A stretch of DNA of 64,000 bases, taken from UHGV virus genome UHGV-1351982. The stretch is one strand, 5' to 3'. The position numbers and the translations under genes are program-made. Below, in pieces: positions 5,506 to 34,842 of the stretch. The DNA comes from a virus. The first letter of the stretch is position 1; every line of letters begins with the position of its first letter. A model generated the notes under the pieces. The model did no database searches. It saw nothing but the letters and a program-made list of their open reading frames with translations, and was not told the DNA's origin.

Positions 5506-5948
5506 TTAAAATTAAACTAACTCATCCAGATTGCATGCCAAAGATTGGCTCTGATGATGCCGCAGGTATGGATCTGCGTGCGTTCTTCGGCACTAACCTT
5601 GCAGCAGATTTACGTGCTATTGCACCAGGCAAATCCCTTATGATTGACACCGGTGTTGCGGTGGAAATTCCGCGAGGTTGGTTTGGTTTGGTAGTTCCTC
5701 GCAGCTCTTTAGGTAAGCGTAAACTGATGATCGCAAATACCGCAGGAGTGATCGACTCAGACTACCGTGGTACTATTAAGATGAACCTTTATAACTACGG
5801 TTCTGAAATGCAAACTCTGGAGAATTTCGAGAGACTTTGTCAGCTAGTAGTACTACCACACTACTCAACTCATCATTTTGAAATCGTTGACGAACTAGAG
5901 GAGACTGATCGTGGAGAAGGCGGCTTTGGAAGCTCAGGAAGTAAATAA
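5502..5948 (+). CDS. dut: dUTP pyrophosphatase
   Basis: dUTPase motifs AGMDLRA, PRSSLG, GVIDSDYRG; 148 aa. Confidence 0.85.
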   Translation: MIKIKLTHPDCMPKIGSDDAAGMDLRAFFGTNLAADLRAIAPGKSLMIDTGVAVEIPRGWFGLVVPRSSLGKRKLMIANTAGVIDSDYRGTIKMNLYNYGSEMQTLENFERLCQLVVLPHYSTHHFEIVDELEETDRGEGGFGSSGSK

Positions 5949-6180
5949 TTATAACTATTCAGATCCTAATATGGTAGGCAATTTTGAGCAGTCAAATACT
6001 TATCATGTTGCAGTTGCTGAACCTAACCTGAATAATGTAGTTCTTAAGGTAGATCGTGAAGGTAACGTAATCCATTGGGATGAAGAAGCTTTTGTCGAAT
6101 TATGTAGTAAGTCTGATGATCCTACACTTAGAACTATGTTGGCAGTGTTTAACTTAGGTATTATTGCTGGAAGCAGATAA
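5911..6180 (+). CDS. hypothetical protein (GTG start, overlaps dut end)
   Basis: ORF only; ORF-track start is a GTG codon; weak. Confidence 0.3.
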   Translation: MEKAALEAQEVNNYNYSDPNMVGNFEQSNTYHVAVAEPNLNNVVLKVDREGNVIHWDEEAFVELCSKSDDPTLRTMLAVFNLGIIAGSR

Positions 6181-6184
6181 TAAT

Positions 6185-6218
6185 AAACCCCAGTGGATTT
6201 CCACTGGGGTTTTCTTTT
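6185..6218. terminator. bidirectional terminator hairpin (CCCCAGTGG-ATTT-CCACTGGGG, A-run before and T-run after)
   Basis: Perfect 9-bp stem between convergent genes ending at 6180 and 6217. Confidence 0.65.
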
Positions 6219-7431
6219 ACTTATCAAGTAATTGTTTTACCAATTTCTTAAGTTCATCAATTTCTTGCTGTTGCTTTTCAACAACTTCATTAAGTTCATT
6301 AAAAGCATTAACTAGGAGAGCGGTAACACCGCTATAACTTACACCTAAATACTCGCTGTTAGAGATTTTATAAACAGCCTCCGGCAAAACTGCCTGTACA
6401 TCCTGAGCTATTACACTTGCTTCCTCAGAATAAATAGAGTGTTCATCTTCATCAAGATTATTACGTTTAAAATAAGTATAACCCTTAATAGATTTAACTT
6501 TCTCTCTTGCTGTTTTAATCTCTTTTAAATTGGCTTTTAATCTAATATCAGAAGTGCTAACCCATTGAACGCAAGACGCATATCCAGCATCATTAAATGT
6601 GTAGATTGCACCTTTTATGTTAAAATGAGCCTCACAACCCCCGGCACTATATCTAACAACATCAAGGCCAGCAGCCCAGTCACCACCCCATCTAACTACT
6701 TTAAACACGTTTGAGGCAGCATCATCACCTGGTAATTCAACAAGAAGGCCACAAGCGCGATCGGCTTCAGCCTTAGCACGATTTGCCTCAGTAGTAGCAT
6801 CTACAGCCTTATCTCCTGCTTCTACAGCAGAACCAGCCGCATTAGTTTCTGATTCTTTAGCATTTAATTCTGATTGTTTAGCGGAAGCAGCATGTTCTCC
6901 AGCAGTTGTAGCAGCAGCTTCTGCACCTGCTTTTGCTGTTTCAGCACCAGTCTTAGCAGTTTCTGCAGCTGTCTGAGCTTGTTGAGCCGCAGTTTTAGCT
7001 TGTTCGGCAAGTCTACGACTGGTCTCCGCATTTTGAGCAGCTAATTCAGCAGAATTCCTGAATCCTTTAGATTCTTCCGCCGATGTAGCGGATGCTTCAG
7101 CACTCTTTTGTGACAGACCAGCTTGTCTCTCAGCTTCCGCGGCAGATGCCGCAGATTGAGTTGCAGATGTTTCAGAAGAAGTAGCATAAATTGCAGCTAG
7201 GTTCTCCGAGTCCTTAGCATTTGTTTCAGATTCTTTTGCTGCAATCTCAGAATCTTTTGCTGCCGCAGCAGAAGAAGCAGAGGCTTCTACAGCAGCAGTT
7301 AATTCACCAGCAGTAATAGAACTAATAGAATTACCTAAAACTACTGTATATTTAGGATACTTACTAGCAGTAGTTGTAGTGTCATCTATATTCAGAATCT
7401 GCTGTACAATAATTTTAGTTTTAAGTGCCAT
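6217..7431 (-). CDS. ltf: short lateral (L-shaped-type) tail fiber with C-terminal intramolecular chaperone domain
   Basis: Ala-rich repetitive N-terminal part; C-terminal about 130 aa with SDIRLK and EAVY.. motifs resembling self-cleaving intramolecular chaperone (S74-like) domains; position before collar/pb4 as in T5. Confidence 0.55.
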   Translation of the reverse strand: MALKTKIIVQQILNIDDTTTTASKYPKYTVVLGNSISSITAGELTAAVEASASSAAAAKDSEIAAKESETNAKDSENLAAIYATSSETSATQSAASAAEAERQAGLSQKSAEASATSAEESKGFRNSAELAAQNAETSRRLAEQAKTAAQQAQTAAETAKTGAETAKAGAEAAATTAGEHAASAKQSELNAKESETNAAGSAVEAGDKAVDATTEANRAKAEADRACGLLVELPGDDAASNVFKVVRWGGDWAAGLDVVRYSAGGCEAHFNIKGAIYTFNDAGYASCVQWVSTSDIRLKANLKEIKTAREKVKSIKGYTYFKRNNLDEDEHSIYSEEASVIAQDVQAVLPEAVYKISNSEYLGVSYSGVTALLVNAFNELNEVVEKQQQEIDELKKLVKQLLDK

Positions 7432-7853
7432 TATTGAGTTACTCCATCGCTGATGTATACTTTACCTTCCATAATACGGAAAGAACTGACTTCAGAGCCA
7501 ATTACATCACGAGTCATTAGGATATCATAATAACCAGCAAAACGTTGTCTTGGGTTATACTTATCACGTTCTTTAGATGCTTTTTCACCAATATTAGTAA
7601 CGTCTGCAACGGAAAGACTAATTGCAGCAGCACCTTGAGCAGCATCAATAACACGAGTTTTAAAGTTAGCTAGAACCTCGGCGTTCTCATCTAAACTAGA
7701 TTTAATAGTTCCTCGGAGTGAATATCCGGTTAAGTTAACAGGAACTTCTGTTGGTGGATATACACTGTCATCAACATCCATAAACTGCATGATAAGACCA
7801 TAAGGTACTTTCTCATCAACAACAATATCAATAACTCGGTTTTCTGTACTCAT
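7431..7853 (-). CDS. collar protein (T5 p132-like)
   Basis: 140 aa, position between ltf and pb4 as in T5; assignment by synteny and size. Confidence 0.45.
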
Positions 7854-7858: not shown

Positions 7859-9916
7859 TTACCTTATATGGATATACCCACTATTTAGGTCTATCTTCAT
7901 CTTGTAGTATGCTTCAGGGTTCCCTGATAACGCAGCATTTCTATCATAGATTATATTAACACCGATTTGTGATAAGAAGGCATTTCCTGCCACAATCTTA
8001 TCCGCAGTAACAGTTCCATTAACAATCATATTGCCATGAAGAACCATTGCAGGGTTAATCCATCCAGCTCCGTTCCATTGACGGGTAAATGCTGTTTGTG
8101 GAGCATTACTGTTAAATTGTGTTAGAACATCGTATTTAACCGGAGGTTTTCCAAAGTTATTTTGAAAGAATGCGTTAGCTTGTCCATCATCCCAACCGCC
8201 TAATCCAGGAATACCCATGGAGTACATCCCAGGACCACGCTGTCCATCATGTCCTATAGTACCTTCAGTACCACTCCATTGAACTACATCAGACCAGCTA
8301 GTACCTTCAAGAAGTTTGTCAGTAACTGGATCAAGTGTACCTGTAGTCGCATAGATATTTTGTGTCATATCTGTACGGTTAGGTGGAGTTTTTGACCAAC
8401 CAGGAGGTGGATAATCTTGTTCTAACGGTTTGGCCGGTAAAGATGTTGCTAACTTATAAACAAATACTATTTGCTTACCTTGTAAACCAGTTCCAATATC
8501 TACGTCACCATTTGGTGTTCCAATTACTACACCACTAGAAATACGCAGAGTAGTACCATCATAACGTATCCATTGTGTAGCATTACCAATGTCTAACTTA
8601 GCTTTGGCAGAGGTATTATCCATACCCATCCAAATACCAGAGTTATTATCCCCCCAGGATTTACCTTGAGTGTAAATTGCTGGGTTATCTTTACCAGACA
8701 AGTTAGTCATGATAAAGTTCGCAGCATTAATATCTCTAGTAATTACTTTACCATCAACGTTAACAACACGGTTTATAGGGTCAAAAGAAATAGGTGCTTT
8801 ACCTTCTTCATCTAGCAGACCAATGTTAATAGCACCAGTAGCTGCATCAATTAGGAATGTTTGTCTCCAGATTTCCCCATCTTTCATACTACCCTTAATA
8901 AAGGCATAGTTAACATCAATACCCGTCTCATTGACAAAACTATTATCTAGAGGAGTATCTTCATTCAGAATAAATGTTACAGGAGATGACTCTGTTATAT
9001 CTTGTTTGTTTGGTCCCCAGGCAATTGATGAAACCTTAAAGGTATGTTCAACTTTCCATGGGAATGATATAATCGTTGCAGCTCTGGCAGCACCCACGTT
9101 TATCTTTTGAGCTTTAGCCCATCCGGTTTTAGCGTATTCCTCGGAGTTTATGTAAGTAACCAAGAATTCACGAACGTTAGCACCAGCACCACGTTCCCAG
9201 TCCCACTCAATTCTAACATCATATCGTTCTTTACCATCAGCAATTCGTGCAGCTTTAAAAACAATATCGATAGGTGCAGTAGGAGGAACAAAATTATAAG
9301 CTACAGTTAGAATATTAGGGAACTCATAGTACCCAGAAGAATCAACTGTAACACCATCAGGCATAGTTACTTGACCAGATATTCTGATCTTATAATCTCC
9401 GATAGGAACTCCACCAAATTTAATAGTAGAACCTAAAGCCCCAATATAATATTTAGTCCATGGACTGTCTTCAGTGGCTGTACTTTTTAACTCAATAGTA
9501 CAGTAGCTTGCTTCACCAGTTGTTTCCACAACAACTATTGGTGCGCCCACCCCAACATCCACAGGTTCTGACTCAGATCTTGCTGCAACAATTATTGGCT
9601 TCTCTTTTGTTTTAAAGTTAGTTTCATTAGAGAGGTTAATACCAATTTTTGCATTTAAAAGTTCTGAGTCAATAATTGAGTCATAAAAAGCTCCCTGAAC
9701 CTGATAGGTAGTTGAGGGAGTTAAGTTATTGATCATAACAAAGAAAGTGTCGATTCCAGTGAAATCTCTCCTATCCACTTCTTCGCCAAGTTTAAGCCAG
9801 AATGATCTACCGATAACATCGTAGTCGGTATAGATAGAATGCTGGATATACGCCATAGTATATCCAGTCATAATACTATTTAAGACCATCTTGGCTGGTG
9901 CATTATTCGAAATCAT
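7859..9916 (-). CDS. baseplate/central fiber protein (T5 pb4-like)
   Basis: 685 aa (T5 pb4 about 688 aa); synteny upstream of pb3. Confidence 0.6.
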
Positions 9917-12766
9917 TTAAATAGATGCCCAATCCACAGATTGCTCGCCATTATCACCTTCTGCTCTTATACGGAAGCGTAACTTCCTATTAATACCTAG
10001 AGCATCCTCGTTATGAAGAGCATAGTCTGCCTTATTGTATATCAGTAGATAATCGTAGACATACTGATCTTCAATTCGTACACTTCTTAATAAACGATCT
10101 AGGTTATCGTAGATTTCGAGAGTGTAGAAGATTCCATCAATGATATCTTCTTCTGGAATTCTATCCCAGGCCAACTTAACGTCTGGTCCTACAAACTCCG
10201 ATGCATCTCCTGAAGCTGTGTTAGTAACCCTGAAATTACTAACGATGCTTAAGTTTTTAGCAGAGTTAAGTTCTACCGATAATGTTACAGGAGAACTTCG
10301 TCTACCATTAATATCTACAGCTCTAATCTCAAAGACTGCTAAACCAGCAGGTTCTCCAATAATTTCTTGGATCATTCGTAGATTTGGATTAGTTTCTAGT
10401 TGCTGTATGATATAAGGATCAGCATGCCCTGAATGAACGATGGAGTAATAAACAACGTTATTAGTTAAGCTAGGAAGCCAAGATAACTCACCATTCTTAC
10501 CAATAGATCCTACTTGTCCACCCGGTGTTGGTGTGTACATAAAGTCTCTAGGAGGCAGTACGTTATTACTAACATCAGGGATATCGTTACCACTATTATC
10601 AACCTGCTCGGAGTTAATGAATACATCCTCACCATACTCTTGCAGTGTAATATTAATCTTACCTTCTCTAGAGTTTTCAACTTCATCAACTAGGAAGTAT
10701 TTCTTATCCCAACCATAACGACCATATGTAAAAGCAATCGGATCGTTAGGCTCAATGCCTATGAAATGATATGGTAATGAGAATGTGAGAGTTCGTGAGT
10801 AACGAGACTTTTTCAGTTCTCTATCTGCAAAGCTACGTGCAGTATAGTAGTTAGTGATATTTGCAAAAGAAAGCTGAAGTTTTTTATCTAATCCTTTATC
10901 TTGTTCCTTAAATATAGAGTTAAAGAATGTAATGGAGTTAGTTTTCCAGCTTAATGCGGGATCTAATATAGAGGCTTGTACTGAGTTAAACTTATTTCTA
11001 CCAGTAGTATCTGATAGCTCCAGATCACCATAGGTATCTAAGAAGTCAATCTCTAATGGGGTGTTTGAGAACTTCTCAACAGTTATTCTATACTGTCCAG
11101 ATAAGTTGTTGATAGCACCGCCATAAGACTCTATTAATCCCTGCACGTTTTTAAATACTGACTCAGAGGTATCGAGAATAGTATTCATTTGAACTATTTG
11201 TCTATTCTCTCCTACAGCATCAGTCCATCCAACGTATCTCCAGTAGGGTTGCCAAGAAACCTGATAGGATTCATCAATGATATCCAGGATAGCTGCTTCT
11301 TGAATAAGTTGCTGGAGAGGGAACTGATCAATAGTGATATTAGCACCATAGCGATCAGAGGTTAGGTAGTCCAGAGTTTGCCAGATACCATTTAAGCTAG
11401 TCTTGTCAGCAGTTACTCTACCATCTGAATGATAGATCTTAATCTTCTTACCCTGAACTTCAGCACTAACTTCTGGAATTTCTGTTCTGTTTTCATTAAT
11501 AGTAAAGCGAACGATAGCATAAGCAGTATCTAACAGTTTATAACGAGAGTCCCAGTATTCCGGGCCATTCTCATTCATGTTCTGTAAATAGAAACCTTTC
11601 TCTTTTGCAATGTTAACTAGAACATCCGCAGCAGATTGATCTGCTTTACCATGATAAGTCCATATACGGATATCGCCATTACCATCATTATACTTATATT
11701 CCTGTCCATGAACAGAAGGTTCAGAGCTTGGCTGGCCTGAAGCAATACGTTGCATGGTATCACCAGCTACTTTCTTAGTACCAAAGCAAGTACGAGACTT
11801 ACTATCATTAGGATCAATACAGATCATTGGTACATCACCAAAGTAGAAATCTAGGAATCCATCAATCTCACCCTCACAGAAAGCGTATACTACATATACG
11901 ATATTAGGGTTATGCAGTTCAGTATCTGCGAATACTGGGATTCCAGGAATTTTCTGAACTCCGTACACTACTGGCAGGAATTTAGCAGCTAAGTTAAAAT
12001 CAAGATCTACTTCCTTAGTTACAGTCTCATAGTATTTCTTTAGGCTATAGCTTCTAGAAAGACCAAATAACTTTTTCTTAGATTGTAACTTATAACGTTC
12101 TTCCTGAACCTGATACTTAGCAAGAATAGAGATACTCTTGTTAGCGTGGAAGAACCCGTAGTCCTCTTGATATTCAGGTCGCTTAGCACCATTAGACGGA
12201 ACTAATTGTCCGGCAACAATCTCAAGCCCTCTATGGTCAGCATCATCTGTGAAACGTCCATTTACTCTATCAAAGTCATAGAATTGGTTTGAACAGTTCC
12301 ATGTAATAACGGATGTACTAACTCCCGAAGTACCAATGTTATCCTTAATACCACCACCAGTGATTTTACCACGGAAGTAAAGTAAAGGACCATTAGTGTC
12401 TGGATCTACAGGAAGAATGTTACCTTCTTCATCAATAACCGCTTGATGGATTGAGATAGATCTATCTAGGAAGGATACACCATTTTGGACTAGTTTTAAT
12501 ACTTCATCCTCAGCAGTACCTGTGATAGTAAAAGAAAGGCTACCAATGGAAAGTTTTCTATTTTGTTTATGTGTTGTTATAGACTTAACTTTACCGGATG
12601 TGTAAAGAATACCATTATAAATTACATCCCTAAAATAGTCTGTAAGATAAATGTATGCAGAACTTGATCCGGTAGAGCTTGGCAATTCAAGAGTAATAAG
12701 GCATGCAGTTTTTATTTTATTATTAGTTCTTAAATACTCTCTTGCACTGTCAAGAATTTTCTTCAT
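9917..12766 (-). CDS. baseplate hub protein (T5 pb3-like)
   Basis: 949 aa, same length as T5 pb3; synteny between pb4 and pb9. Confidence 0.65.
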   Translation of the reverse strand: MKKILDSAREYLRTNNKIKTACLITLELPSSTGSSSAYIYLTDYFRDVIYNGILYTSGKVKSITTHKQNRKLSIGSLSFTITGTAEDEVLKLVQNGVSFLDRSISIHQAVIDEEGNILPVDPDTNGPLLYFRGKITGGGIKDNIGTSGVSTSVITWNCSNQFYDFDRVNGRFTDDADHRGLEIVAGQLVPSNGAKRPEYQEDYGFFHANKSISILAKYQVQEERYKLQSKKKLFGLSRSYSLKKYYETVTKEVDLDFNLAAKFLPVVYGVQKIPGIPVFADTELHNPNIVYVVYAFCEGEIDGFLDFYFGDVPMICIDPNDSKSRTCFGTKKVAGDTMQRIASGQPSSEPSVHGQEYKYNDGNGDIRIWTYHGKADQSAADVLVNIAKEKGFYLQNMNENGPEYWDSRYKLLDTAYAIVRFTINENRTEIPEVSAEVQGKKIKIYHSDGRVTADKTSLNGIWQTLDYLTSDRYGANITIDQFPLQQLIQEAAILDIIDESYQVSWQPYWRYVGWTDAVGENRQIVQMNTILDTSESVFKNVQGLIESYGGAINNLSGQYRITVEKFSNTPLEIDFLDTYGDLELSDTTGRNKFNSVQASILDPALSWKTNSITFFNSIFKEQDKGLDKKLQLSFANITNYYTARSFADRELKKSRYSRTLTFSLPYHFIGIEPNDPIAFTYGRYGWDKKYFLVDEVENSREGKINITLQEYGEDVFINSEQVDNSGNDIPDVSNNVLPPRDFMYTPTPGGQVGSIGKNGELSWLPSLTNNVVYYSIVHSGHADPYIIQQLETNPNLRMIQEIIGEPAGLAVFEIRAVDINGRRSSPVTLSVELNSAKNLSIVSNFRVTNTASGDASEFVGPDVKLAWDRIPEEDIIDGIFYTLEIYDNLDRLLRSVRIEDQYVYDYLLIYNKADYALHNEDALGINRKLRFRIRAEGDNGEQSVDWASI

Positions 12767-13377
12767 AGACTTTCCCTCAAGGAAAGTGAAATACCAGTAT
12801 ATGTACCATTACTATTTAACGTAGAGCCGAAGCTGTCTCCGTTCATTAATTTAGTTCTAAATAGAATACCATTAAATACCGGTTTCTCACTACCCGTAGT
12901 AGTAATGAATAGATCAGGGTAAACACTTATATTCCAAGTATTTCCTACTGTGTTGATAGAAGTGATTTTGTACACTTTTGGGTGGTTGGACAATTTAAAT
13001 AAATCGCCTGGTTTAGGCAGTCCACGAAGTGTACCTTTAGTGTCCATAATAACTGTTGAACCTTTTTGTCCAGCAGGAATATTTACAGCACTAGTATCAC
13101 CACGAACTCGGAAAGCTTCATATTGTGGTAATAACACATCAATATAGCTACCTGTTCTTTTGTAATCTAGAATGAATGAATCTAATTTAGCAAATTCATC
13201 TGGGAATAATTCTGGATAAGAGATATTAATACCCCAATATTGAGCAGACACCTTAACCTCCCTAACTTTACCATTAGGTAATTCATCACGAATCATAGGG
13301 TCATTGTCTACTAAGTTAACGCTTTCAAAACCTAACCCTGATAGCTCTGGGTTCGTGTATGGGTCTGGTAGTCTCAT
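12763..13377 (-). CDS. distal tail protein (T5 pb9-like, Dit)
   Basis: 204 aa, same as T5 pb9; located between tape measure and hub. Confidence 0.6.
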   Translation of the reverse strand: MRLPDPYTNPELSGLGFESVNLVDNDPMIRDELPNGKVREVKVSAQYWGINISYPELFPDEFAKLDSFILDYKRTGSYIDVLLPQYEAFRVRGDTSAVNIPAGQKGSTVIMDTKGTLRGLPKPGDLFKLSNHPKVYKITSINTVGNTWNISVYPDLFITTTGSEKPVFNGILFRTKLMNGDSFGSTLNSNGTYTGISLSLRESL

Positions 13378-13485: not shown

Positions 13486-16400
13486 TTAAGAATTACCAAG
13501 TGATTTCAGGGTGGTTCCATTCTCATTAAGAGCCTGTTCCACGGCATCCCTGAAAGCAGCACTATTGCTCGAAGCAAAATCTCGGAAGCTAGCCGCATCC
13601 ATCGTACTGATGTTCAGCACAATAGGTCTACCCGATGTGCCTTTTGAAGATCCTTTGAGTTCATCAGTAGGGGTAGCCTTCATCGGAACCATAGGAGTGA
13701 TTACTTCGGTACCATGCTCACCCATCTGGTAACTAACTCCAGGATACATATTACCACCTTCTGCACGAGGTACGAAAGAGTTAGCATTACCAATCCCTTG
13801 ATCTCCTCGAATATAAGAAAGTTCACCTGCGTTAGCCGACATAGAAACGTCTACATTCTTCTGGCGCTCTCCAAGAGTTAAGTAACCCGCTGTCTCAGCA
13901 CCAGAGTCTCCAATAGAAGACATACCAGATGCAGAGGATGCTTGAGCAAGAGCCATAGCACCTGCTAAACCAGCCGCAACCATCAGAGGAATAGAGAATG
14001 GATACGGAACAGCTGTTGCTGCTTGCATCACCGCTACTGCCGTCTGGATAATGATTTGCTTCTTAGCTGCATCTTGCTGGATCTTGAGCTTTTCAGCCTC
14101 TAACTTCTTGATCTTAGCTTTGGATTGCTCAGATTTACCATCACGTTTCTGTTCTGCTGCAATAGCTGCATCAATAGCACTTACCTGTTGACCAACACTA
14201 TACTGAATCATTGAAGACACAGTTTGCATACCAGCCGCTACTAGAGAAGTGGTATCCAGAGATCCTTGTGAGAACTGGATCATAGCGTTAGTTAGGTTAC
14301 CCATGCTTTGTGCTACAGCGGTTGCTTCGGAGTTCAGTTCAGACAGCTTAGAAATAGCCTGGTCATAGGACGCCATTCTATTCTGCATATCTGCGAAGTT
14401 TTTATCTTCTCCAGTTAATCCAGTAGTAGGAGTATACGTAGCCCCTACAGCCGCACCTACAGAAGACTGCATTTCTGCATCGCGCTGTACTCTTAAAGCT
14501 GCGAGCTGGGCTCTAGTTTCTGCTAGCTTTTTATTATACTCTAACTGAGCAGCAGCATTCCCTAAAGTTTTTTGCTTAAGGTCTTCGAATAGCTGGATTT
14601 GCTCCTTGATACGTTCCGCAGCTCCCATTAAAGGATTTGCGGTAAATTTCCTTTGTTGCTCCTCTTCCCTGCCAGCAGCCATTTCCCTTTGCTGATCCTG
14701 ACGGAATTTCCAGATTTCACGTTCAATTTGTGCCTGAGCACGTCTTGATTGTTCAGCTTCCTTATGCTTATCAACCTGTTTGGAGTACCATTCATACTTT
14801 TCTTTCTCGACAGTCAGTTCAAGGTTCAACTGAGCTAAACGATATTGAGTATCTGTCATAGTACGGTTATTCAGGAGAGCAATTTCACGATCAACACCAA
14901 GAATCTTATCGGTATAGTCCTTAACCTTCTTCTGGGCTTCCATACCCTGGTTAGTAATCTTGATACGTTCTAACTGAATCTTAGCTATTTCACCTTCGAT
15001 TGCTTTGTTACCTTTGTTAGTTTCTAGGACACGCTTAAGAGCTGCTTCCTGTTCTTCTAACTGTTGAATTTCCAAACGTCTACCAGCTTCCTGTGCTTTC
15101 TCTTTGTCCTTAGTCTGGTTATACACTTCGGCAATCTTCTGCTGAACTTCTAACTGATTCTTAGTCTCATTACCAGTTAATTTTACATAACCAGCAAGAG
15201 CTTGTGAAGCAGTCTTCATCTCACTAAGAGTATTATATCCTAAGTTCAGGCTCTTAACATACTCATCAGCATTTTTACCAGTACCAGCAGAAAGAGACTC
15301 AATAGTCTTAATCGTATCTGATAGGGATGCACTAGTTTTAGCCGCAGTATTAGTATTCTGAGCAATGTTCTGGATATCATTAGCTAAGTCGCTAGCAGTT
15401 TTCTTAGCTTGGTCATACGCTTTCTGCTGTTCTGTCAATCCTTTCAGAGTTGCAGAGTTAAAGTCATAAACCGCATCAGGATCATTCATATCCTTCTGCA
15501 GATTAATCTGCTTCTGAAATTCTGGATTAGCCTTAGCAGCCGCAGCACCCGCAGCTTGATATGCAGATTTCCATGCACCTAAATTATCGGTTGAATCAGT
15601 AACTTCCTTATCCAAACGTTCTACTTGGAGTGCCATAGCCGCAGTTTCAGCTACGAACTTCTTGTTTTCCTCAGAAGCACCAAGAGCCGCAGCACTTACC
15701 GGAACACCCTGAGCCACAGAACGAATTGCACCTGCAGTAAAGAAGTCAGCCTGTTCCATACGCTTGTCTAGATCAGCTTTTAACTTATTACGCTTTTCTA
15801 GAGATTCTTTATACATATCAAGAGCTTTATTATACCCTTCCTCAGAAGCGGAAAGACTTAAAGCTACAGCGCCAACGTTAGTTGGGTCAATCTGACGGTT
15901 AGTTTCTTCCTGTGCTCTAGCAGCAGAAGCTGAGATAGATGCTTGAGAAGTATAGAATACTGCGTTAATAGAATCAATTACCGGACCTAAATACTTAGCA
16001 GCAGCCTGTTGAACCTTTCTCAGTGCAGCATCAGCATTAGCAGCAAACTGTTCCCATGGAGTTGCGCGAAGTACATCATCTAGGTAGCCGAAACGTTTAG
16101 TAGATTCAGCGATTACTGCGTTAGCATATGCTTGTTGCTTCTGGAAAGTAGATAGACTATTAACGTTATATGTAATACCTGTGTTAGCAGCATTTAACTG
16201 TTTAACATAGTCAGCATAAGCATCGTTAAGACGTATAGTAACACCAAGTTCGTCCAGAAGTTCGATTTCTTGTTTAGATACACCCTTGATTACACGGTTA
16301 AGTGCATCAGTCATATCAACACCAAGAACAGCAGCAGCACGACGAGCTACTAGACCAAATTTATTAAGTTGTTCCGCATCGAATCCATATGCAGAAGCAG

Positions 16401-17166
16401 AGGATGCCTGTCTCATTGCTTCTTCGAAGGAGATTGCGTAACCAGCAGCCTCTTGTAGAGATCTAGCTAGAGTTTGTACCGGAGTACCTGTTTGAGTACC
16501 AACAATAGTACCAAACTTCTCAAGACGGTTTAACTGGTCACCCATCTTAAGCTGTTCAAATGCAGATTGTAGAACGAACACGTTAGATGCGATAGCAGCG
16601 TACATAAGAGGTAAACCACCACCCACTTTAGCCATAGCTGCGAAGTCACGAGTAGCACCACGTGCTGAGCCAGAAGTATTACCAATTGCACGACTAGCAC
16701 GTCCTGCAGCGGTAGTTGTATCATTAAAGCCTCTAGCAGTATTACCTAGGGCTCGGTTAGTATCATATAATCTATCTTGAACTTTTTCAGTTGCAGCAGC
16801 TACATCATTACCCATCGCCTTAACAGATTTACCAACATGTGTAAATCCAGACTCTAGCTTCTCAGATACCTCGATCATAGCAAGGGCAAGATCATCTAGC
16901 TTATCACCAATACCCTCAATGGATTTAGTGATACCAGCCATACCTCTGCTAGCCTGCATTTTAGTTAGACTTTTAGCTGCTCTATCCGCCGCCCTCTCAA
17001 TGGAGTAAAGAGTTTTGGGCATTTTTCCTAACTGCTCATTAGTCAGTTCGGAAGCGGCAGCAGCATTTTCTAACGCATCGGAAACGTTCTCAATAGATTT
17101 TGCAGTACGGGTTGCCCCTTTCTGCTTTACATCTATAAGTAGTTCTCGTATTAGCTTATCAGTCAT
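13486..17166 (-). CDS. pb2: tail tape measure protein (T5 pb2-like)
   Basis: 1226 aa, extensive coiled-coil/Ala-Gln-rich sequence, hydrophobic Gly/Ala-rich segment, position in tail module. Confidence 0.85.
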   Translation of the reverse strand: MTDKLIRELLIDVKQKGATRTAKSIENVSDALENAAAASELTNEQLGKMPKTLYSIERAADRAAKSLTKMQASRGMAGITKSIEGIGDKLDDLALAMIEVSEKLESGFTHVGKSVKAMGNDVAAATEKVQDRLYDTNRALGNTARGFNDTTTAAGRASRAIGNTSGSARGATRDFAAMAKVGGGLPLMYAAIASNVFVLQSAFEQLKMGDQLNRLEKFGTIVGTQTGTPVQTLARSLQEAAGYAISFEEAMRQASSASAYGFDAEQLNKFGLVARRAAAVLGVDMTDALNRVIKGVSKQEIELLDELGVTIRLNDAYADYVKQLNAANTGITYNVNSLSTFQKQQAYANAVIAESTKRFGYLDDVLRATPWEQFAANADAALRKVQQAAAKYLGPVIDSINAVFYTSQASISASAARAQEETNRQIDPTNVGAVALSLSASEEGYNKALDMYKESLEKRNKLKADLDKRMEQADFFTAGAIRSVAQGVPVSAAALGASEENKKFVAETAAMALQVERLDKEVTDSTDNLGAWKSAYQAAGAAAAKANPEFQKQINLQKDMNDPDAVYDFNSATLKGLTEQQKAYDQAKKTASDLANDIQNIAQNTNTAAKTSASLSDTIKTIESLSAGTGKNADEYVKSLNLGYNTLSEMKTASQALAGYVKLTGNETKNQLEVQQKIAEVYNQTKDKEKAQEAGRRLEIQQLEEQEAALKRVLETNKGNKAIEGEIAKIQLERIKITNQGMEAQKKVKDYTDKILGVDREIALLNNRTMTDTQYRLAQLNLELTVEKEKYEWYSKQVDKHKEAEQSRRAQAQIEREIWKFRQDQQREMAAGREEEQQRKFTANPLMGAAERIKEQIQLFEDLKQKTLGNAAAQLEYNKKLAETRAQLAALRVQRDAEMQSSVGAAVGATYTPTTGLTGEDKNFADMQNRMASYDQAISKLSELNSEATAVAQSMGNLTNAMIQFSQGSLDTTSLVAAGMQTVSSMIQYSVGQQVSAIDAAIAAEQKRDGKSEQSKAKIKKLEAEKLKIQQDAAKKQIIIQTAVAVMQAATAVPYPFSIPLMVAAGLAGAMALAQASSASGMSSIGDSGAETAGYLTLGERQKNVDVSMSANAGELSYIRGDQGIGNANSFVPRAEGGNMYPGVSYQMGEHGTEVITPMVPMKATPTDELKGSSKGTSGRPIVLNISTMDAASFRDFASSNSAAFRDAVEQALNENGTTLKSLGNS

Positions 17167-28329: not shown

Positions 28330-30111
28330 TTAGGTTAGGCGTTGAACTGTTACACGTAGTCTTGGCAAGAAAACAGCTGCCGCTTCTGCAGCGTGAATGA
28401 TAACACCCAACTCAACGTTGCCATTACCAAGGTTTTTAATAGTATAAATATATCCGTTCCTACGGAAAGCAAACTTATCAGGCCTACTAGCCCAAGTTTG
28501 TGTATAACTATAGGAAGTTGTACTGTGATAAGGTACTAGATATCCAGGTGGCAGAGTAAGAATCTGGTGGAATACACCATCACCAGCTGTATAACTTTGT
28601 TGACGTCTACCTTGTACCTGCCAAGCGCTACCGCCGTAAGTACGCACAGGCATTCCAGCAGTATTAAGATTACCCATAATAACTTCAGTAGTTAATATAA
28701 CGGTAGAGTGAGCATTAGGTAATCCTAACCAAACAGTGGCCAAAGGTGTATAGAAGTCACCAGCACCAGGGTAGGAAGGAGTTATATCATCACCAACATA
28801 AGTACTTGCAACGTTGCCTGGAAATAACCTGAGGGGTACAGTACTAGGACTCCACACAGGTCCATGTTCATTACCGATGGAGTTGGTATTAGTATCTACA
28901 TACCATTGTTTACCTACACCAAATTTATATAAGCTAATTTGAGAAGCTGCACCCCCATAGTTAACAGGAGACCACAACCCGCCATTACTAGAGCCGATAA
29001 ATTCACATCGTGCAGTATTATCACCAAAAACTCCGGTATACGCAGCGTTATTACCAACATACTCCATATCAGGGCGATAGCCTAAGTTTCCAAAGGCATT
29101 CTGGTTAATGAATTTATATCCTGTATTTGGTAAACTAACACCTTTAATAGTAAAGTTAGATGGAGATATTAGGATATCTGAACCGGTAAATGGATTACCA
29201 GAAACTCCCATACTACCATTAGAATAGCGCAGATTTAGCACATACCAAATAACCTTAGTTGGCGTAACGTTATACCAGTCCTGTACATATACCTTTCTAG
29301 CAGACTGAGCAGCCATATTAGAAGTAGAACCTCTACAAACATATATTTTTTTTGGATATGCAGGAGATTGGTAAAGAACGTTTACGTTATCTGGTAGTAC
29401 ACCTTTCTTACCTGCAAAGCCACGAATATTAGAATTACAAACATAAAACCAATCATGGCCTCTACCAGCAGAACCAACAGGCGCCTGCCAGTTAGGTTCC
29501 CAATAATCTGCGTTACCACCATCTAAAGGAACAGTAGAGACACCAGTTGGAAAACCCATAAGACTCCAGGCTCTGGCAATGGCTTCACCAGCAGAAACAC
29601 CACCAGGTCTAAAGATCTGGAAACCAGAGGACTGTAGTAAACTGCCTCCAGAACCTTGCCGAGCAATAGATTCCTCATGACCAAGACCACCATTATAGAT
29701 ATAGGTACCATGAGCTAAACTATCACCGATCGCAAAAGCAGATGTTACAGATAATTCAGCACCAGCACGTGGTTGGTCTTCAAAGAATGATAAGAACTGG
29801 CCAACCTGAGATTGTGTACCATTAAGGAAACCCCTATGAGTACCATTTATCTCAATAGCAGTTAATATAACTCTACCAGGATCATTGGATTTAATGTTTA
29901 TAATATCCCAAGGCATCTGAGTAACAAAGTACCCATTACCTGCATCACCTAGGGCAGCCTCATAAGTCCCATCAACTAGGACGAAGGGCATATCTGAGTG
30001 GAAGATACTATTAGTATTTGGAGAGTAGTGCTGATTTATATCACCACCATTAGCAGCGTTTAGAGATAATACAGTTTTACCATCACTAAATTTTCCTGCG
30101 AAAAAACTCAT
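28330..30111 (-). CDS. oad: receptor-binding protein (T5 pb5/oad-like)
   Basis: 593 aa; N-terminus [18 protein letters not shown]...IFHSDM resembles my recollection of T5 pb5; divergently adjacent to llp as in T5-like phages. Confidence 0.6.
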
Positions 30112-30136
30112 ACAATCTCCTTCTTTAAAAATGTAT

Positions 30137-30165
30137 TTGCTTAGATCCCTCTATTTTGCTATAAT
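30137..30165 (+). promoter_or_regulatory. early-type promoter (TTGCTT-N17-TATAAT) with ATAAATT leader upstream of llp
   Basis: Hexamers and spacing read directly; same family as minus-strand early promoters. Confidence 0.55.
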
Positions 30166-30194
30166 ATATTTATAAATTAAACAGAGGAACGATT

Positions 30195-30461
30195 ATGAAA
30201 AAGTTACTAGCTATCGTAGTTGCAGCAGTAGTGTTGACTGGTTGTGTGCCAGCTCCCGAGCCATTTTGTAGGGCATATGTGAAGTCTTATGGTCATGTTG
30301 GTGAAGAACACTACGCTTTAGATATTCGAGAAGCACGTACTGTGGGCTACCGATTCCCTAAAACTCAGTTACGCACTAAGTTTGGGTGGTGGGATTTGTC
30401 ACAGTTTGATCTCAAATATGGCGATTGCAAATTTAAACTAGAACAATCTGGTCACTTGTAA
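30195..30461 (+). CDS. llp: lipoprotein Llp-like (receptor-blocking superinfection exclusion)
   Basis: Signal peptide with lipobox LTGC; small; divergent from the receptor-binding gene as in T5. Confidence 0.6.
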   Translation: MKKLLAIVVAAVVLTGCVPAPEPFCRAYVKSYGHVGEEHYALDIREARTVGYRFPKTQLRTKFGWWDLSQFDLKYGDCKFKLEQSGHL

Positions 30462-30535
30462 TTAGTATAAAGTAAAAAGATCTCGAAGTAAACAAAAATT
30501 TTTATTTCTGGGATGAGGTACAGGTAGCAAACACA

Positions 30536-31599: not shown

Positions 31600-32334
31600 T
31601 TAGGCAACTTTTAATTTATCAATGAATTGTTGCGGTGTGGTACTATATTCCGCGCGTTCTTCCTCGGTCATACCTTCCCAACACATTTTTAAACGTTCGG
31701 CTAGGAATTGATAATCGTTATCATCATCAAGCGATTCATCAATAAAGGTTTCACCGATCAATGTTACGCCGATTGATAGGATATCGTTAACGGCTTGAGC
31801 ATCCAGCGTTTTAAATCCAGCACTTGCCGCCGCTGATAATACACCTTTATGATCATCAATCATTGTAAAATCAGCATTAGGATATAGCTGTTTAAACAGT
31901 TCAAAGTAATAAGATTTATATACAGCGTCTTTACTGTGGTATATTTCGCTAACCTTATTTGCATCAAAGTATTTATGTAATGTATCGCGGGAAAATACGC
32001 GAATATTACTATTTCCGCGCCCTCGCAAGCCTTGTTTGCGTAAATAAAAATAATCGCTTTTAGACATTAGGCGCGCGGTACAAATAATATTTAAAGTATT
32101 TGCATCATTCATACATTGGCGCATATATTCAACCAATGGCAATAAAGAATCCTGCATAATTAAATCATGCTTGCAGGCTTCGCGGGAATATTTATTTAAA
32201 TCTAAATTCCCATTATCATCAAAACAAGGCCCGACACGGTGCATTGAGTTAATGATTGTACCGTCTAAATCCCAAATCATAACGCGGGAAATATGCGGGA
32301 AAGTGCGGGTAATATTCATGTTGACTTGATTCAT
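31600..32334 (-). CDS. dmp: 5'-deoxyribonucleotidase (T5 Dmp-like, HAD-family)
   Basis: 244 aa, same length as T5 Dmp; HAD motif I VMIWDLDGTI near N-terminus. Confidence 0.6.
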   Translation of the reverse strand: MNQVNMNITRTFPHISRVMIWDLDGTIINSMHRVGPCFDDNGNLDLNKYSREACKHDLIMQDSLLPLVEYMRQCMNDANTLNIICTARLMSKSDYFYLRKQGLRGRGNSNIRVFSRDTLHKYFDANKVSEIYHSKDAVYKSYYFELFKQLYPNADFTMIDDHKGVLSAAASAGFKTLDAQAVNDILSIGVTLIGETFIDESLDDDNDYQFLAERLKMCWEGMTEEERAEYSTTPQQFIDKLKVA

Positions 32335-32421
32335 TTGTTACATTCTCCATTTAAGGGATTTAGGTTAATTCAATCTTGCCAGCTAATTATATTGGATTAG
32401 CTGGCAATGTTCAATTAACTA

Positions 32422-33177: not shown

Positions 33178-34842
33178 TTATGCAAAGAATTTACCGTTCT
33201 TAAAGTCAATCAATGTTCTTTGACCGTTTGCATAGGTAATTAAATGCGTTTGCGTCCAGCTTGACGCGCCCACGTTGTAGCCCATATCAAGGGAACCAGC
33301 AACGCCAGCGGTATAAACGCCGCCGTAAATGCTAGCCGTATGAGTATGACCAGTGTTAAGGCGTCCCAACTTTTTAAACTGCTTAGGATTGCCCCGACTG
33401 CCGTTAATGCCATTGTGACCATGTACGCCGCATTCAATGCCAGCGATTTTAAACGACTGGTCAGTAGTCAGGAAAATAGCGTTAAATTCGCAACCTGCGA
33501 CACTACGCAAGGCGTAATCTAGCACGTTAAAAGTATCATCCTTTTCAGCAATAGCGGCGTATATAGCAGCGTTTAGACGGTGATACAATTCCGCGTTTGC
33601 GGGATCGTCTTTAATGTTAGCGTTACGATCATCTAACCAGCGGGATAAAGCTAAATCATGGTTAGATTCAACAATGATTGTTTGAGAGAAATCACGCTCC
33701 ATTGATTCTAATACGCGTCCAGTGTCGATAAGATCATCTAGAACCTTGTCACGTCCTGCGGCGTACTGTTTAGCAAGGAATACACCACTAGCGCGGTTGT
33801 GATGGTTACGCGATGTAAAATCATGCACATCATGAATAAACTGATATTTAGGCTTGAGAATATCAAGCAAGCTGTTTTCACTAGCCCATGAAGCAACGGC
33901 GCATTCATCATCTAATTTTTCGGCGTGAATATCACCATATTGCAAGCCTAGAACATGATCGGACGTTTCAAAACATCCGGTAGGCATAGCGCAAACATTC
34001 AAATCATAAAACATTCCGCTTTCGTCCATCGTTTCAAGCTGACGAACAAAAAATTCGCCGTCGTCGTCAAATTCTACCAGCAAAGCGCCGAAATTATGTA
34101 AAGCCTCGGCCTTTTGTCCTGCCTTTTGCTGGATATAGTTTTTAAGCGTAGCCGTTCCGGTTGAATACATACGGCGCACTACTTCACCTTTTAACGCTGG
34201 CACACTTTCAGCGGTAATTTTAGCGTGACCAATTGCCAGACCTTCAATATTTAAAGCCGTGGCGGTTTCTGCGAATCCTGAAAGCGGATAGTCTGCCGTT
34301 GGTAACACGTTAATTTCAGCCATGAAAGCAAAACGGCGATTATTTAAAAATACGTTTTTCTCGCAAATATATTTATTAAATGCGGGATCGTATTTAATGC
34401 CTTCGTTACCTTCTCCATTCTGGAAGCCGTTTTTATTGTAAATGAATTTACTAACCAGCAATTCACCGCCGATATATTCAGCGAATTTTTCCAGACTTGC
34501 TAAAAAGTTTTTATGCGGGAAAGTATTATTTTGAATCGACGTTAGAATAAAACGGCGACCGGATTTAACTTCCCACTGTTCCACGGTACTAGAAACAATT
34601 CCCGCCGCTTCGGGGCGATCATCATTTTTAATCGCCTTTTCAGCTTTTGCCGCTTTCGGTTTTGCTGGCTTATTTGCTTCCAACCAATCGCAAATTGCGG
34701 TTGAATGTTTCGTTGTATCGTAAACAGCTTTTGATATATCGTCGCAAACTTCCAGCTTAGTAGCGCGTAAACGTTTACCGTAGAAATTAAAATCAGCGGC
34801 AAGTTTAACGATCTGGGCTTGTTTTTCTGCGGAAATATTCAT
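33178..34842 (-). CDS. A1: A1-like pre-early protein with metallophosphatase motifs
   Basis: 554 aa (T5 A1 about 556 aa); calcineurin-like motifs GDIHAE and GHTHTASIYGG; in pre-early region next to dmp. Confidence 0.6.
   Translation of the reverse strand: MNISAEKQAQIVKLAADFNFYGKRLRATKLEVCDDISKAVYDTTKHSTAICDWLEANKPAKPKAAKAEKAIKNDDRPEAAGIVSSTVEQWEVKSGRRFILTSIQNNTFPHKNFLASLEKFAEYIGGELLVSKFIYNKNGFQNGEGNEGIKYDPAFNKYICEKNVFLNNRRFAFMAEINVLPTADYPLSGFAETATALNIEGLAIGHAKITAESVPALKGEVVRRMYSTGTATLKNYIQQKAGQKAEALHNFGALLVEFDDDGEFFVRQLETMDESGMFYDLNVCAMPTGCFETSDHVLGLQYGDIHAEKLDDECAVASWASENSLLDILKPKYQFIHDVHDFTSRNHHNRASGVFLAKQYAAGRDKVLDDLIDTGRVLESMERDFSQTIIVESNHDLALSRWLDDRNANIKDDPANAELYHRLNAAIYAAIAEKDDTFNVLDYALRSVAGCEFNAIFLTTDQSFKIAGIECGVHGHNGINGSRGNPKQFKKLGRLNTGHTHTASIYGGVYTAGVAGSLDMGYNVGASSWTQTHLITYANGQRTLIDFKNGKFFA

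What the first reader, a model, noticed from the sequence alone, without database searches (positions are those of the whole stretch)
6217..7431. Unusually short lateral tail fiber with retained C-terminal chaperone domain
At the position where T5 encodes a roughly 1400-aa L-shaped tail fiber, this genome has only 404 aa: an Ala-rich repetitive N-terminal part joined almost directly to a C-terminal domain resembling the self-cleaving intramolecular chaperone (SDIRLK motif). No room is left for a long shaft or receptor-binding tip, so it is either a natural minimal fiber or an in-frame deletion derivative, with consequences for O-antigen-dependent adsorption.
Basis: partly seen in the sequence, partly recalled or inferred. 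Interest (0 to 1): 0.45.

Follow-up and report, generated by a model that had tools for sequence, protein, structure and literature searches.

The report
Deletion-fused stub of lateral tail fibre
In this T5-like Salmonella/E. coli phage, a roughly 3.85-kb deletion has fused the start of one side-fibre gene (ltfA) in frame to the end of the next (ltfB), which probably leaves a stub with no host-sugar-binding part; the same kind of mutant has already been described in related phages.

Summary
The ORF at 6217..7431 (-) encodes 404 aa directly after the collar gene ltfC. It has an Ala-rich helical N-terminal part and a C-terminal Peptidase_S74 chaperone domain with the SDIRLK motif.

It is not a shortened T5 pb1. 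It is a chimera of two genes that are separate in every close relative examined:
- aa 1-226 are the LtfA N-terminus (99.3% nt identity to phage UTK0010; residues 1-52 identical to DT57C LtfA in PDB 8HQZ).
- aa 224-404 are the LtfB C-terminus (89.6% nt identity to UTK0010, LtfB residues 481-661).

The two alignments overlap on 8 nt, GATCGCGC (window 6755-6762). About 3,854 bp of a UTK0010-like locus are missing. This removes the proposed LtfB-docking region, both variable receptor-binding regions and LtfA's own chaperone.

What remains is:
- the collar anchor;
- about 186 aa of coiled coil (roughly 27 nm);
- a conserved 67-aa terminal β-module that resembles the S16 gp37 tip;
- the chaperone domain.

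The junction was not found in any collection searched. This ltf locus is shorter than all 27 T5-like loci surveyed.

In-register ltfA-ltfB deletions are already documented (DT530(1) and DT571/2-ABF, Golomidova 2016). The pb5-like receptor-binding protein is intact. The phage probably depends on it alone and probably needs hosts without a protective O-antigen. This is a new instance of a known kind of event, of low to moderate interest.

The parts
6217..7431 (-). Fused ltfA::ltfB ORF of 404 aa (42.4 kDa precursor; predicted mature product aa 1-293, 29.8 kDa)
   Evidence: phrog_5481 (LtfA type) matches aa 1-226. phrog_12321 (LtfB type, profile positions 497-695 of 695) matches aa 209-404.
7312..7431 (-). 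aa 1-40, the N-terminal collar (LtfC)-binding segment of LtfA
   Evidence: Residues 1-52 are identical to DT57C LtfA in PDB 8HQZ. In DT57C these residues form beta-strands that insert into the LtfC ring, and the helix starts at T40 (PMC10713586). The segment is disordered in the monomer AF2 model.
6754..7311 (-). aa 41-226, the Ala-rich alpha-helical trimerisation (coiled-coil) segment of LtfA
   Evidence: 33% Ala. AF2 predicts a helix over 41-195 and low confidence over 193-226. 99.3% nt identity to UTK0010 ltfA.
6755..6762 (-). Deletion junction: 8-nt microhomology GATCGCGC (Asp-Arg-Ala), present in both ltfA (codons 224-226) and ltfB (codons 481-483) of UTK0010
   Evidence: The two BLAST alignments overlap on exactly these 8 nt.
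6553..6753 (-). aa 227-293, the conserved terminal beta-module of LtfB that precedes the cleavage site
   Evidence: AF2 predicts strands over 238-287 with pLDDT about 79-90. The equivalent module in the UTK0010 LtfB model (495-544) best matches the S16 gp37 tip, 6F45, with TM 0.61-0.65. It is 83-92% aa identical across many fibres.
6220..6552 (-). aa 294-404, the intramolecular chaperone / Peptidase_S74 domain. The SDIRLK motif lies at 6535..6552.
   Evidence: Pfam PF13884, 48.2 bits against a cut-off of 22. S, D and R are invariant and K nearly invariant in 50 homologues. 95% aa identity to the LtfB chaperone domains of relatives.
7431..7853 (-). ltfC (p132), the collar protein that anchors the fibre N-termini
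   Evidence: Pfam PF23926 LtfC, E = 1.9e-15. phrog_34807. 100% identical to an IMG/VR relative.
6185..6212 (.). Bidirectional hairpin terminator between the fibre ORF and the convergent DUF7369 gene
   Evidence: 12-bp stem, 7 GC pairs. It lies inside the flank that aligns colinearly with UTK0010, and the same hairpin sequence recurs there.
28330..30111 (-). Intact pb5-type receptor-binding protein (593 aa), the remaining host-recognition device
   Evidence: phrog_4815, E = 3e-283. T5 pb5 structures 8B14 and 8A8C, E = 1.6e-46. 98-99.7% identical to the RBPs of Salmonella Epseptimaviruses.

Best explanation
The 404-aa gene is the product of one deletion of about 3.85 kb inside a two-gene lateral tail fibre locus (ltfA followed by ltfB) of an Epseptimavirus-type T5-like phage. 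The deletion joined ltfA codon 226 to ltfB codon ~483 (UTK0010 numbering) at an 8-nt microhomology. The most likely mechanism is replication slippage or illegitimate recombination. The reading frame is kept.

The fusion retains:
- the LtfA N-terminus that threads into the LtfC collar;
- the LtfA trimeric coiled coil;
- the last conserved β-module of LtfB;
- the LtfB self-cleaving intramolecular chaperone.

It has lost:
- the LtfA region proposed to dock LtfB;
- the LtfA distal receptor-binding domain and LtfA's own chaperone;
- the LtfB N-terminal docking peptide;
- the whole variable body of LtfB.

What follows is inferred, not shown. If the protein folds, three short stubs decorate the collar. 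Each would be a rod of about 27 nm with a small β-knob. After cleavage at Ser294 the mature chain would be 29.8 kDa. If it does not fold, the virion carries no fibres. In either case O-antigen recognition by the lateral fibres is lost, and adsorption rests on the intact pb5-type receptor-binding protein alone. Such a phage should grow on rough hosts, or hosts whose O-antigen is not protective, and plate poorly on hosts with a shielding O-antigen. The variant was most probably selected, or simply tolerated, during propagation on a host where the fibres are dispensable.
For: Shown by tool results:
- BLASTP against phage Stitch: aa 1-226 match LtfA 1-226, and aa 224-404 match LtfB 513-696 at 62% identity.
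- BLASTN against UTK0010: 99.3% identity to ltfA and 89.6% to ltfB. The two alignments overlap on 8 nt, and 3,854 bp are absent.
- UTK0010 ltfA and ltfB share no exact match longer than 13 nt. The junction sits on a 9-nt shared word. From the counts, I estimate that a random pair of positions lies within a match of 8 nt or more about 2 times in 10,000.
- The missing LtfA 231-1027 and LtfB 1-480 segments are nowhere else in the window.
- All the close relatives examined carry two full genes: Stitch 1074 + 696 aa, UTK0010 1027 + 661 aa, EH1 1020 + 625 aa, and 118970_sal2 (1027-aa LtfA; ltfB annotated as two ORFs).
- The locus is shorter than any of the 27 surveyed.
- The junction peptide, back-translated, matches nothing in the viral, metagenome or genome collections. 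The same pattern does hit the window once, as a control.
- No homologue covers more than 61% of the protein, no phage record covers 80% or more of it, and the exact protein is not on record.
- The Peptidase_S74 domain and its Ser/Lys motif are intact.
- Residues 1-52 are identical to the structurally resolved DT57C LtfA anchor.
- The pb5-like RBP is intact.

From the literature:
- In-register ltfA-ltfB deletions arise spontaneously and were selected on rough E. coli C600. DT530(1) had a compromised fibre. DT571/2-ABF fuses LtfA 1-663 to LtfB 288-767 (PMC4728585 section 3.8).
- Lateral tail fibres are needed on O-antigen-producing hosts but not on rough ones (PMC4728585; PMC10713586; PMC8594841).
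Against: - The true parent is not available. The ltfB-derived part is only 80-84% identical to UTK0010 over the tip module, so the deletion is inferred by comparison rather than observed.
- The fusion is in frame, has no other lesions, and keeps a complete terminal module plus chaperone. The breakpoint falls in a predicted inter-module linker. This is also what a selected, functional minimal fibre would look like.
- Natural single-gene fibres with an LtfA-like N-terminus and an LtfB-like body do exist (L005, 983 aa), so fusion alone does not prove a laboratory artefact.
- Only 64 kb of a genome expected to be about 110 kb (by comparison with relatives) is visible.
- Folding, cleavage, assembly and host range were not tested.
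Confidence: 0.82

Rival explanations
1. This is a naturally evolved and maintained minimal lateral fibre. In this reading the anchor, coiled coil and conserved terminal knob form a functional short appendage. It might stabilise the LtfC/LtfA lasso ring of the tail tip, bind a conserved surface ligand, or dock a separately encoded adhesin as the S16 gp37 tip docks gp38.
For: - The ORF is in frame and undamaged, and its start still overlaps the ltfC stop as in relatives.
- The breakpoint lies at a predicted linker, so a whole β-module with pLDDT about 85 is retained.
- That module resembles the S16 gp37 tip, which is a docking platform.
- Differences from UTK0010 ltfB are mostly synonymous, 37 against 15 codons.
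- LtfA N-termini are an integral part of the collar structure (PMC10713586).
- Fibre modules are naturally shuffled between phages.
Against: - The junction and the protein are unique across all collections searched.
- Every relative examined keeps fibre proteins of 680 aa or more.
- The retained module is the conserved part of the fibre, not the specificity-bearing part.
- The synonymous bias is equally explained by divergence that happened before the deletion.
- No gp38-like adhesin gene is evident beside the locus.
- The known analogue DT530(1) had a compromised fibre.
Confidence: 0.1
2. This is an assembly or population artefact. The phage stock carries the full ltfA/ltfB locus, and the contig reports either a minority deletion variant or a mis-join.
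For: - Deletion variants of this locus co-exist with the intact parent in laboratory stocks. DT530 and DT530(1) came from the same lineage.
- The junction is unique in public data.
Against: - The shared sequence at the junction is only 8-9 nt. In my judgement this is too short to collapse an assembly graph, although this was not tested.
- The join is in frame and colinear with both flanks.
- No leftover fragments of the missing segments exist in the window.
Confidence: 0.06
3. This is an unrelated tail component, or a truncated T5-type pb1 that kept its own C-terminal chaperone.
For: It occupies the pb1 position. It shares 49% identity with a 1,396-aa T5-type Ltf over aa 1-230.
Against: - The C-terminal 181 aa are 92% identical to LtfB of UTK0010. 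They show no significant BLAST match to the T5-type Ltf C-terminus and only 21% identity to LtfA's own chaperone region.
- The PHROG and Pfam assignments are all to fibre families.
Confidence: 0.02

Closest known systems
Spontaneous ltfA-ltfB deletion fusions DT530(1) and DT571/2-ABF of T5-like phages (Golomidova et al. 2016, Viruses 8:26, PMC4728585)
   Same: A large in-register deletion joins ltfA and ltfB into one ORF. The fusion keeps the LtfA N-terminus and the LtfB C-terminus with its chaperone. These mutants arise or are selected on hosts where the fibres are dispensable, and they alter or abolish O-antigen-dependent host range.
   Different: - The published deletions were attributed to recombination between long, related C-terminal repeats of the two genes. 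They kept much more sequence; ABF keeps LtfA 1-663 and LtfB 288-767, including a receptor-binding domain.
- Here the closest relative has no long ltfA/ltfB homology (maximum 13 nt).
- The join uses 8 nt of microhomology, and almost all fibre body is lost (LtfA 227-1027 and LtfB 1-480).
Branched LtfA/LtfB lateral tail fibre of DT57C (cryo-EM 8HQZ; Ayala et al. 2023, PMC10713586)
   Same: The N-terminal 52 residues are identical. The anchor plus helix starting at T40 and the adjacent ltfC collar gene are the same. The C-terminal Peptidase_S74 domain is of the LtfB type.
   Different: The window protein lacks the region homologous to phiEco32 gp14 (LtfA 223-471), which is proposed to dock LtfB. 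It also lacks the LtfB N-terminal docking peptide and both distal receptor-binding regions. A branched fibre is therefore impossible.
T5 L-shaped tail fibre pb1 (1,396 aa)
   Same: Same genomic position. Homologous N-terminal anchor and coiled coil (49% identity over aa 1-230). The same class of C-terminal self-cleaving chaperone, with an S-D-x-R-L-K motif.
   Different: pb1 is a single-gene fibre with a long shaft and a polymannose-binding tip (the binding specificity is from my own knowledge). The window's C-terminal half is of LtfB type, not pb1 type.
Salmonella phage S16 gp37 distal tip with its chaperone (PDB 6F45)
   Same: Sequence match of aa 247-401 at E = 6.6e-14. It is the best structural match for the pre-cleavage β-module of the LtfB model.
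   Different: In S16 this tip docks a separate adhesin, gp38. No such partner is known or seen here. The S16 fibre belongs to a myovirus long tail fibre.
Fibre-less variants of classical phages (T5 hd/ltf mutants; lambda PaPa stf frameshift), cited from my own knowledge
   Same: Loss of side fibres in stocks propagated on rough K-12-type hosts. Infection then proceeds through the central receptor-binding protein alone.
   Different: Those cases are point or frameshift lesions, or are undefined. This one is an in-frame two-gene fusion that may still place a stub on the collar.

Membership tests
LtfA / pb1-type lateral tail fibre, N-terminal anchor | An N-terminal segment of about 40 aa that inserts into the LtfC collar, followed by a trimerising alpha-helix starting near T40 | tested here: met
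   Residues 1-52 are identical to DT57C LtfA in 8HQZ, with E = 4e-97 over aa 1-230. AF2 predicts a helix from residue 41. The structural role comes from PMC10713586.
LtfA / pb1-type lateral tail fibre, N-terminal anchor | Gene lies immediately downstream of ltfC, with its start overlapping the ltfC stop | tested here: met
   ltfC is at 7431..7853 and the ORF starts at 7431 with a TAATG overlap. Stitch and UTK0010 have the same arrangement.
Full-length LtfA | The phiEco32 gp14-like region (about aa 223-471, proposed LtfB docking), a distal receptor-binding domain, and its own C-terminal chaperone | tested here: not met
   Nothing beyond LtfA residue 226-230 is present in the ORF or elsewhere in the window.
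Full-length LtfB | An N-terminal docking peptide of about 45 aa (phiEco32 gp15-like) and a variable central body | tested here: not met
   LtfB residues 1-480 have no match in the window.
Full-length LtfB | A conserved terminal beta-module plus chaperone at the C-terminus | tested here: met
   92% aa identity to UTK0010 LtfB 481-661. phrog_12321 profile positions 497-695 match aa 209-404.
Intramolecular chaperone / Peptidase_S74 (PF13884) | Profile match above the curated threshold | tested here: met
   48.2 bits against a cut-off of 22, over aa 294-354.
Intramolecular chaperone / Peptidase_S74 (PF13884) | A conserved Ser...Lys dyad in an S-D-x-x-x-K motif at the domain start | tested here: met
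   S294-D-I-R-L-K299. The equivalent S551, D552 and R554 are invariant and K556 is at least 90% conserved in 50 homologues.
Intramolecular chaperone / Peptidase_S74 (PF13884) | Autoproteolytic release after trimer folding | not testable with these tools
   This needs SDS-PAGE or mass spectrometry of virions or recombinant protein. The expected species are 29.8 kDa mature and 42.4 kDa precursor.
ltfA::ltfB in-register deletion mutants (DT530(1) / DT571/2-ABF kind) | A single ORF made of an LtfA N-terminal part and an LtfB C-terminal part, where close relatives have two genes | tested here: met
ltfA::ltfB in-register deletion mutants (DT530(1) / DT571/2-ABF kind) | Generated by recombination between long homologous stretches of ltfA and ltfB | tested here: not met
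   Only 8-9 nt are shared at the junction, and the longest exact ltfA/ltfB match in UTK0010 is 13 nt. The likely mechanism is therefore microhomology-mediated.
ltfA::ltfB in-register deletion mutants (DT530(1) / DT571/2-ABF kind) | Loss or change of O-antigen-dependent host range, with normal growth on rough hosts | not testable with these tools
   This requires plating and adsorption assays.

The most novel reading that the evidence does not exclude
The stub is not debris but a selected minimal appendage. In this reading the LtfA anchor and coiled coil are kept because the nine LtfA N-termini are structural parts of the collar lasso. The conserved gp37-like knob, folded by its chaperone, would then serve as a generic docking or contact surface, for a trans-encoded adhesin or for a conserved LPS-core ligand. 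This would define the smallest functional T5-type lateral fibre.
Probability: 0.07. Interest if true: 0.5.

Novelty: new member of a known kind. Interest (0 to 1): 0.22.

Why it matters
**Host range.** For anyone using this phage, the lesion predicts a host range limited to strains whose O-antigen does not shield the outer-membrane receptor. That matters if the phage is considered for Salmonella or E. coli biocontrol or typing. It also signals that the sequenced stock may be a laboratory-adapted derivative of a phage with two full fibre genes.

**Mechanism.** The case shows that the ltf locus can collapse through 8-nt microhomology even when ltfA and ltfB share no long repeats. This extends the instability described for DT57C-type phages.

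**Possible tool.** The fusion is a ready-made minimal construct of anchor, coiled coil, terminal module and chaperone. It could be used to test what the collar needs for assembly and whether the chaperone can fold a nearly empty fibre.

It does not reveal a new type of system.

Tried and rejected
- **Whole-model Foldseek of the 404-aa AF2 model against PDB.** Only coiled-coil noise came back, because the long helix dominates. I used the LtfB model instead, and even there only the 6F45 tip match is meaningful, with E-values of 0.03-0.15.
- **Search for the same junction elsewhere.** A degenerate back-translated pattern found nothing in the viral, metagenome or genome collections. The exact-protein look-up, the 5.8-billion-protein search and tblastn of phage records all failed to find a protein spanning the junction.
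- **Search for a nearer parent of the ltfB-derived part.** The best nucleotide match is 89.7%. The best amino-acid match for the tip module is 92%, and it comes from a roughly 50-kb siphovirus contig. The direct parent therefore remains unknown.
- **Truncated T5 pb1.** Considered and rejected.
- **Missing segments relocated within the window.** Considered and rejected.
- **Assembler collapse on a repeat.** Considered and rejected, because the shared word is only 8-9 nt.
- **Synonymous versus non-synonymous counts.** These cannot date the deletion, because the divergence could have come before it.
- **Literature search for Epseptimavirus isolates with a truncated ltf.** It turned up context only, and no identical case.
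Full report
**1. What is at the coordinates**

The ORF at 6217..7431 on the minus strand is real. It has an ATG start and encodes 404 aa. It lies in the late-gene block of a T5-like phage. Reading along the minus strand, the order is:
- tape-measure protein, 13486..17166;
- distal tail protein, 12763..13377;
- pb3-like hub, 9917..12766;
- pb4 straight fibre, 7859..9916 (all four PB4 Pfam domains);
- LtfC collar protein, 7431..7853 (PF23926);
- this ORF.

After the ORF comes a strong hairpin terminator at 6185..6212. Beyond that are the convergent DUF7369, dUTPase and flap-endonuclease genes. The start codon overlaps the ltfC stop as TAATG, the same arrangement as in relatives.

The window belongs to the Epseptimavirus group of Markadamsvirinae. 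Its best matches are Salmonella and E. coli phages at 97-98% identity over the replication genes and about 92% over the pre-early region. The genome itself is not in the phage collection.

The compositional claims hold. Residues 41-226 are 33% Ala. Peptidase_S74 (PF13884) matches aa 294-354 at 48.2 bits against a cut-off of 22. SDIRLK is at aa 294-299.

**2. It is a chimera of two genes**

All the close relatives I examined carry two fibre genes here:

| Phage | LtfA (aa) | LtfB (aa) |
|---|---|---|
| Stitch | 1074 | 696 |
| UTK0010 | 1027 | 661 |
| EH1 | 1020 | 625 |
| 118970_sal2 | 1027 | split into 295 + 381 |

BLASTP shows that aa 1-226 of the window protein match LtfA 1-226. From "DRACGLLVE" onward, aa 224-404 match the C-terminus of LtfB (Stitch 513-696, 62% identity; UTK0010 481-661, 92%). 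PHROG profiles agree. The LtfA family phrog_5481 covers aa 1-226. The LtfB family phrog_12321 covers aa 209-404 with its last 199 profile positions.

At the DNA level, window 7500-6755 aligns to UTK0010 ltfA at 99.3% identity and window 6762-6101 to the 3' end of ltfB and its downstream flank at 89.6%. The two alignments overlap on exactly 8 nt, GATCGCGC (window 6755-6762). Those 8 nt encode Asp-Arg-Ala in both parent genes. Relative to UTK0010, 3,854 bp are absent.

The absent segments, LtfA 231-1027 and LtfB 1-480, have no counterpart anywhere in the 64-kb window.

**3. Mechanism of formation**

In UTK0010 the two genes share no exact match longer than 13 nt. There are 158 maximal matches of 8 nt or more, and the junction sits on one of them, a 9-mer in UTK0010. 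From those counts I estimate that a randomly chosen pair of positions falls inside such a match about 2 times in 10,000. The microhomology is therefore the signature of a slippage or illegitimate-recombination deletion rather than chance. In my judgement it is also too short to be an assembler collapse.

The ltfB-derived part is mosaic relative to UTK0010. It is 94-98% identical over the chaperone-coding part and 80-84% over the tip module. The tip module's best amino-acid match, at 92%, is in a fibre from a roughly 50-kb siphovirus contig. The direct parent therefore carried a different ltfB allele and is not in the databases searched.

**4. What is kept and what is lost**

Kept:
- The anchor. 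Residues 1-52 are identical to DT57C LtfA as built in the cryo-EM model 8HQZ. In that structure the N-terminal strands augment the LtfC β-sheets and form a lasso ring, and a trimerising helix starts at T40 (PMC10713586).
- The helical segment. AF2 predicts a helix over 41-195, with low confidence over 193-226. At about 0.148 nm per residue (general knowledge), 186 residues would give a rod of roughly 27 nm.
- A 67-aa β-module (aa 227-293, strands 238-287, pLDDT about 79-90).
- The chaperone domain, with its Ser/Lys motif.

In an AF2 model of UTK0010 LtfB, the breakpoint falls in a short helix (476-481, WRDRAS). That helix follows a long linker and precedes the terminal β-module (495-544). The retained module is therefore complete.

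The terminal β-module is the best-conserved part of LtfB-type fibres apart from the chaperone. It is 83-92% identical across T5-like and small siphovirus fibres whose upstream parts differ. Its closest solved structure is the S16 gp37 tip, 6F45 (Foldseek TM 0.61-0.65; sequence E = 6.6e-14). From this conservation I infer that it is not the specificity determinant.

Lost:
- LtfA 223-471, the phiEco32 gp14-like region proposed to dock LtfB;
- the LtfA distal domain that Golomidova et al. showed to switch host specificity;
- LtfA's own chaperone;
- the LtfB N-terminal docking peptide;
- the variable body of LtfB (PMC4728585).

**5. How unusual it is**

In 27 T5-like IMG/VR loci the distance between ltfC and the dUTPase gene is 2,099-6,082 bp. 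Their fibre proteins are 680-1,598 aa, either single or as pairs. The window's distance is 1,483 bp.

Several searches failed to find the same fusion:
- No protein in the 5.8-billion-sequence collection covers more than 61% of the query.
- No phage record covers 80% or more of the protein.
- The exact protein is not on record.
- A degenerate pattern for the junction peptide AEADRACGLLVE hits the window once and nothing in the viral, metagenome or genome collections.

One IMG/VR phage (L005) has an ltfC identical to the window's. It carries a natural single 983-aa fibre with an LtfA-like N-terminus, an extended coiled coil and an LtfB-like body. Module exchange is therefore natural, but with the receptor-binding body retained.

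**6. Comparison with what is known**

Golomidova et al. 2016 (PMC4728585, section 3.8) describe exactly this class of event.
[quoted passage not shown] It arose during cultivation on rough E. coli C600 and gives a compromised fibre. The re-purified original stock still had both genes.
- DT571/2-ABF fuses LtfA 1-663 to LtfB 288-767 and retains LtfB specificity.

The same paper, the DT57C structure paper and the BASEL paper all state that the lateral fibres bind O-antigen. They are essential on O-antigen-producing hosts and dispensable on rough ones.

The present case differs in two ways. The join uses microhomology rather than long ltfA/ltfB repeats. The deletion is also far more extensive and leaves no variable domain.

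**7. Most likely function**

The steps shown are the chimeric structure, the intact anchor, the intact chaperone motif, and the intact pb5-type receptor-binding protein. The RBP is at 28330..30111, is 98-99.7% identical to those of Salmonella Epseptimaviruses, and is homologous to T5 pb5 structures.

The steps inferred are as follows. The protein either assembles as three short stubs on the collar, or fails to fold and leaves a fibre-less virion. In both cases fibre-mediated O-antigen binding is lost, and infection depends on the central receptor-binding protein. Host range is then restricted to strains without a shielding O-antigen.

One further possible selective factor comes from my own knowledge of T5 heat-stable deletion mutants. 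A genome 3.85 kb shorter may increase capsid stability. This was not tested.

**8. Rivals**

- A maintained, functional minimal fibre is not excluded. The frame is intact, a whole module is retained, and the anchor is part of the collar structure. The uniqueness of the junction and the loss of all variable sequence count against it (about 0.1).
- A minority-variant or assembly artefact is possible only in the sense that the stock may be mixed (about 0.06).
- An unrelated protein or a truncated pb1 is refuted.

**9. Verdict**

The correction is that this is an ltfA::ltfB two-gene fusion and not a shortened pb1. It is a new instance of a documented kind of mutation. It is useful for interpreting this phage's host range and provenance, but it is not a new biological system. 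Interest is about 0.2.

Noticed in passing
window 59819-63562 (minus strand): A cluster of 13 tRNA genes: Met, Ile, Thr, Gly, Gln x2, Arg, His, Ser x2, Leu, Ala x2. This is typical of the T5-like early region.
   Followed up: no
window 28330-34842: The late structural block ends with the pb5-like RBP (28330..30111). The window then runs directly into pre-early-type genes: a polynucleotide kinase at 31600..32334 and an A1-like DNA transfer protein at 33178..34842. The contig therefore appears permuted relative to the T5 map, or crosses the terminal-repeat junction.
   Followed up: partly
window 5900-6762 compared with L002 (UTK0010): Identity to UTK0010 is sharply mosaic. It is 97-100% up to 5900, 80-85% over the DUF7369 gene (5900-6100), 94-98% over the chaperone-coding part (6200-6500), and 80-84% over the tip module (6500-6762). 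This pattern suggests past module exchange at this locus.
   Followed up: partly
L005 10423-13374 (IMGVR_UViG_2974569706_000001): A relative whose LtfC is 100% identical has a single 983-aa lateral fibre. It is built from an LtfA-like N-terminus, an extended or duplicated coiled coil, and an LtfB-like body with chaperone. This is a natural one-gene 'A-B' architecture.
   Followed up: partly
L004 1611-3594 (Salmonella phage 118970_sal2): The ltfB position is annotated as two overlapping ORFs (295 aa 'hypothetical', plus a 381-aa tail fibre protein). This may be a frameshift or a sequencing error in ltfB, which would be another sign that the locus is unstable.
   Followed up: no
phage-collection hits MG065642.1, PQ773600.1, OR846838.1: Records named Campylobacter phage A148, Corynebacterium phage CPphiVTCCBPA_418 and Listeria phage LM 4-11-1 match the T5-like fibre and RBP genes of this window closely. 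They are probably mislabelled or contaminant sequences.
   Followed up: no
UTK0010 LtfB model residues 495-544, equivalent to window aa 238-287 (6571..6720): The conserved pre-cleavage beta-module of LtfB-type fibres resembles the S16 gp37 tip, which in S16 docks the gp38 adhesin. Whether LtfB tips dock any partner is unknown.
   Followed up: partly
window 6185-6212: A perfect 12-bp-stem hairpin with T-runs on both strands sits between the convergent ltf and DUF7369 genes. It is probably a bidirectional terminator that separates late from early transcription.
   Followed up: no
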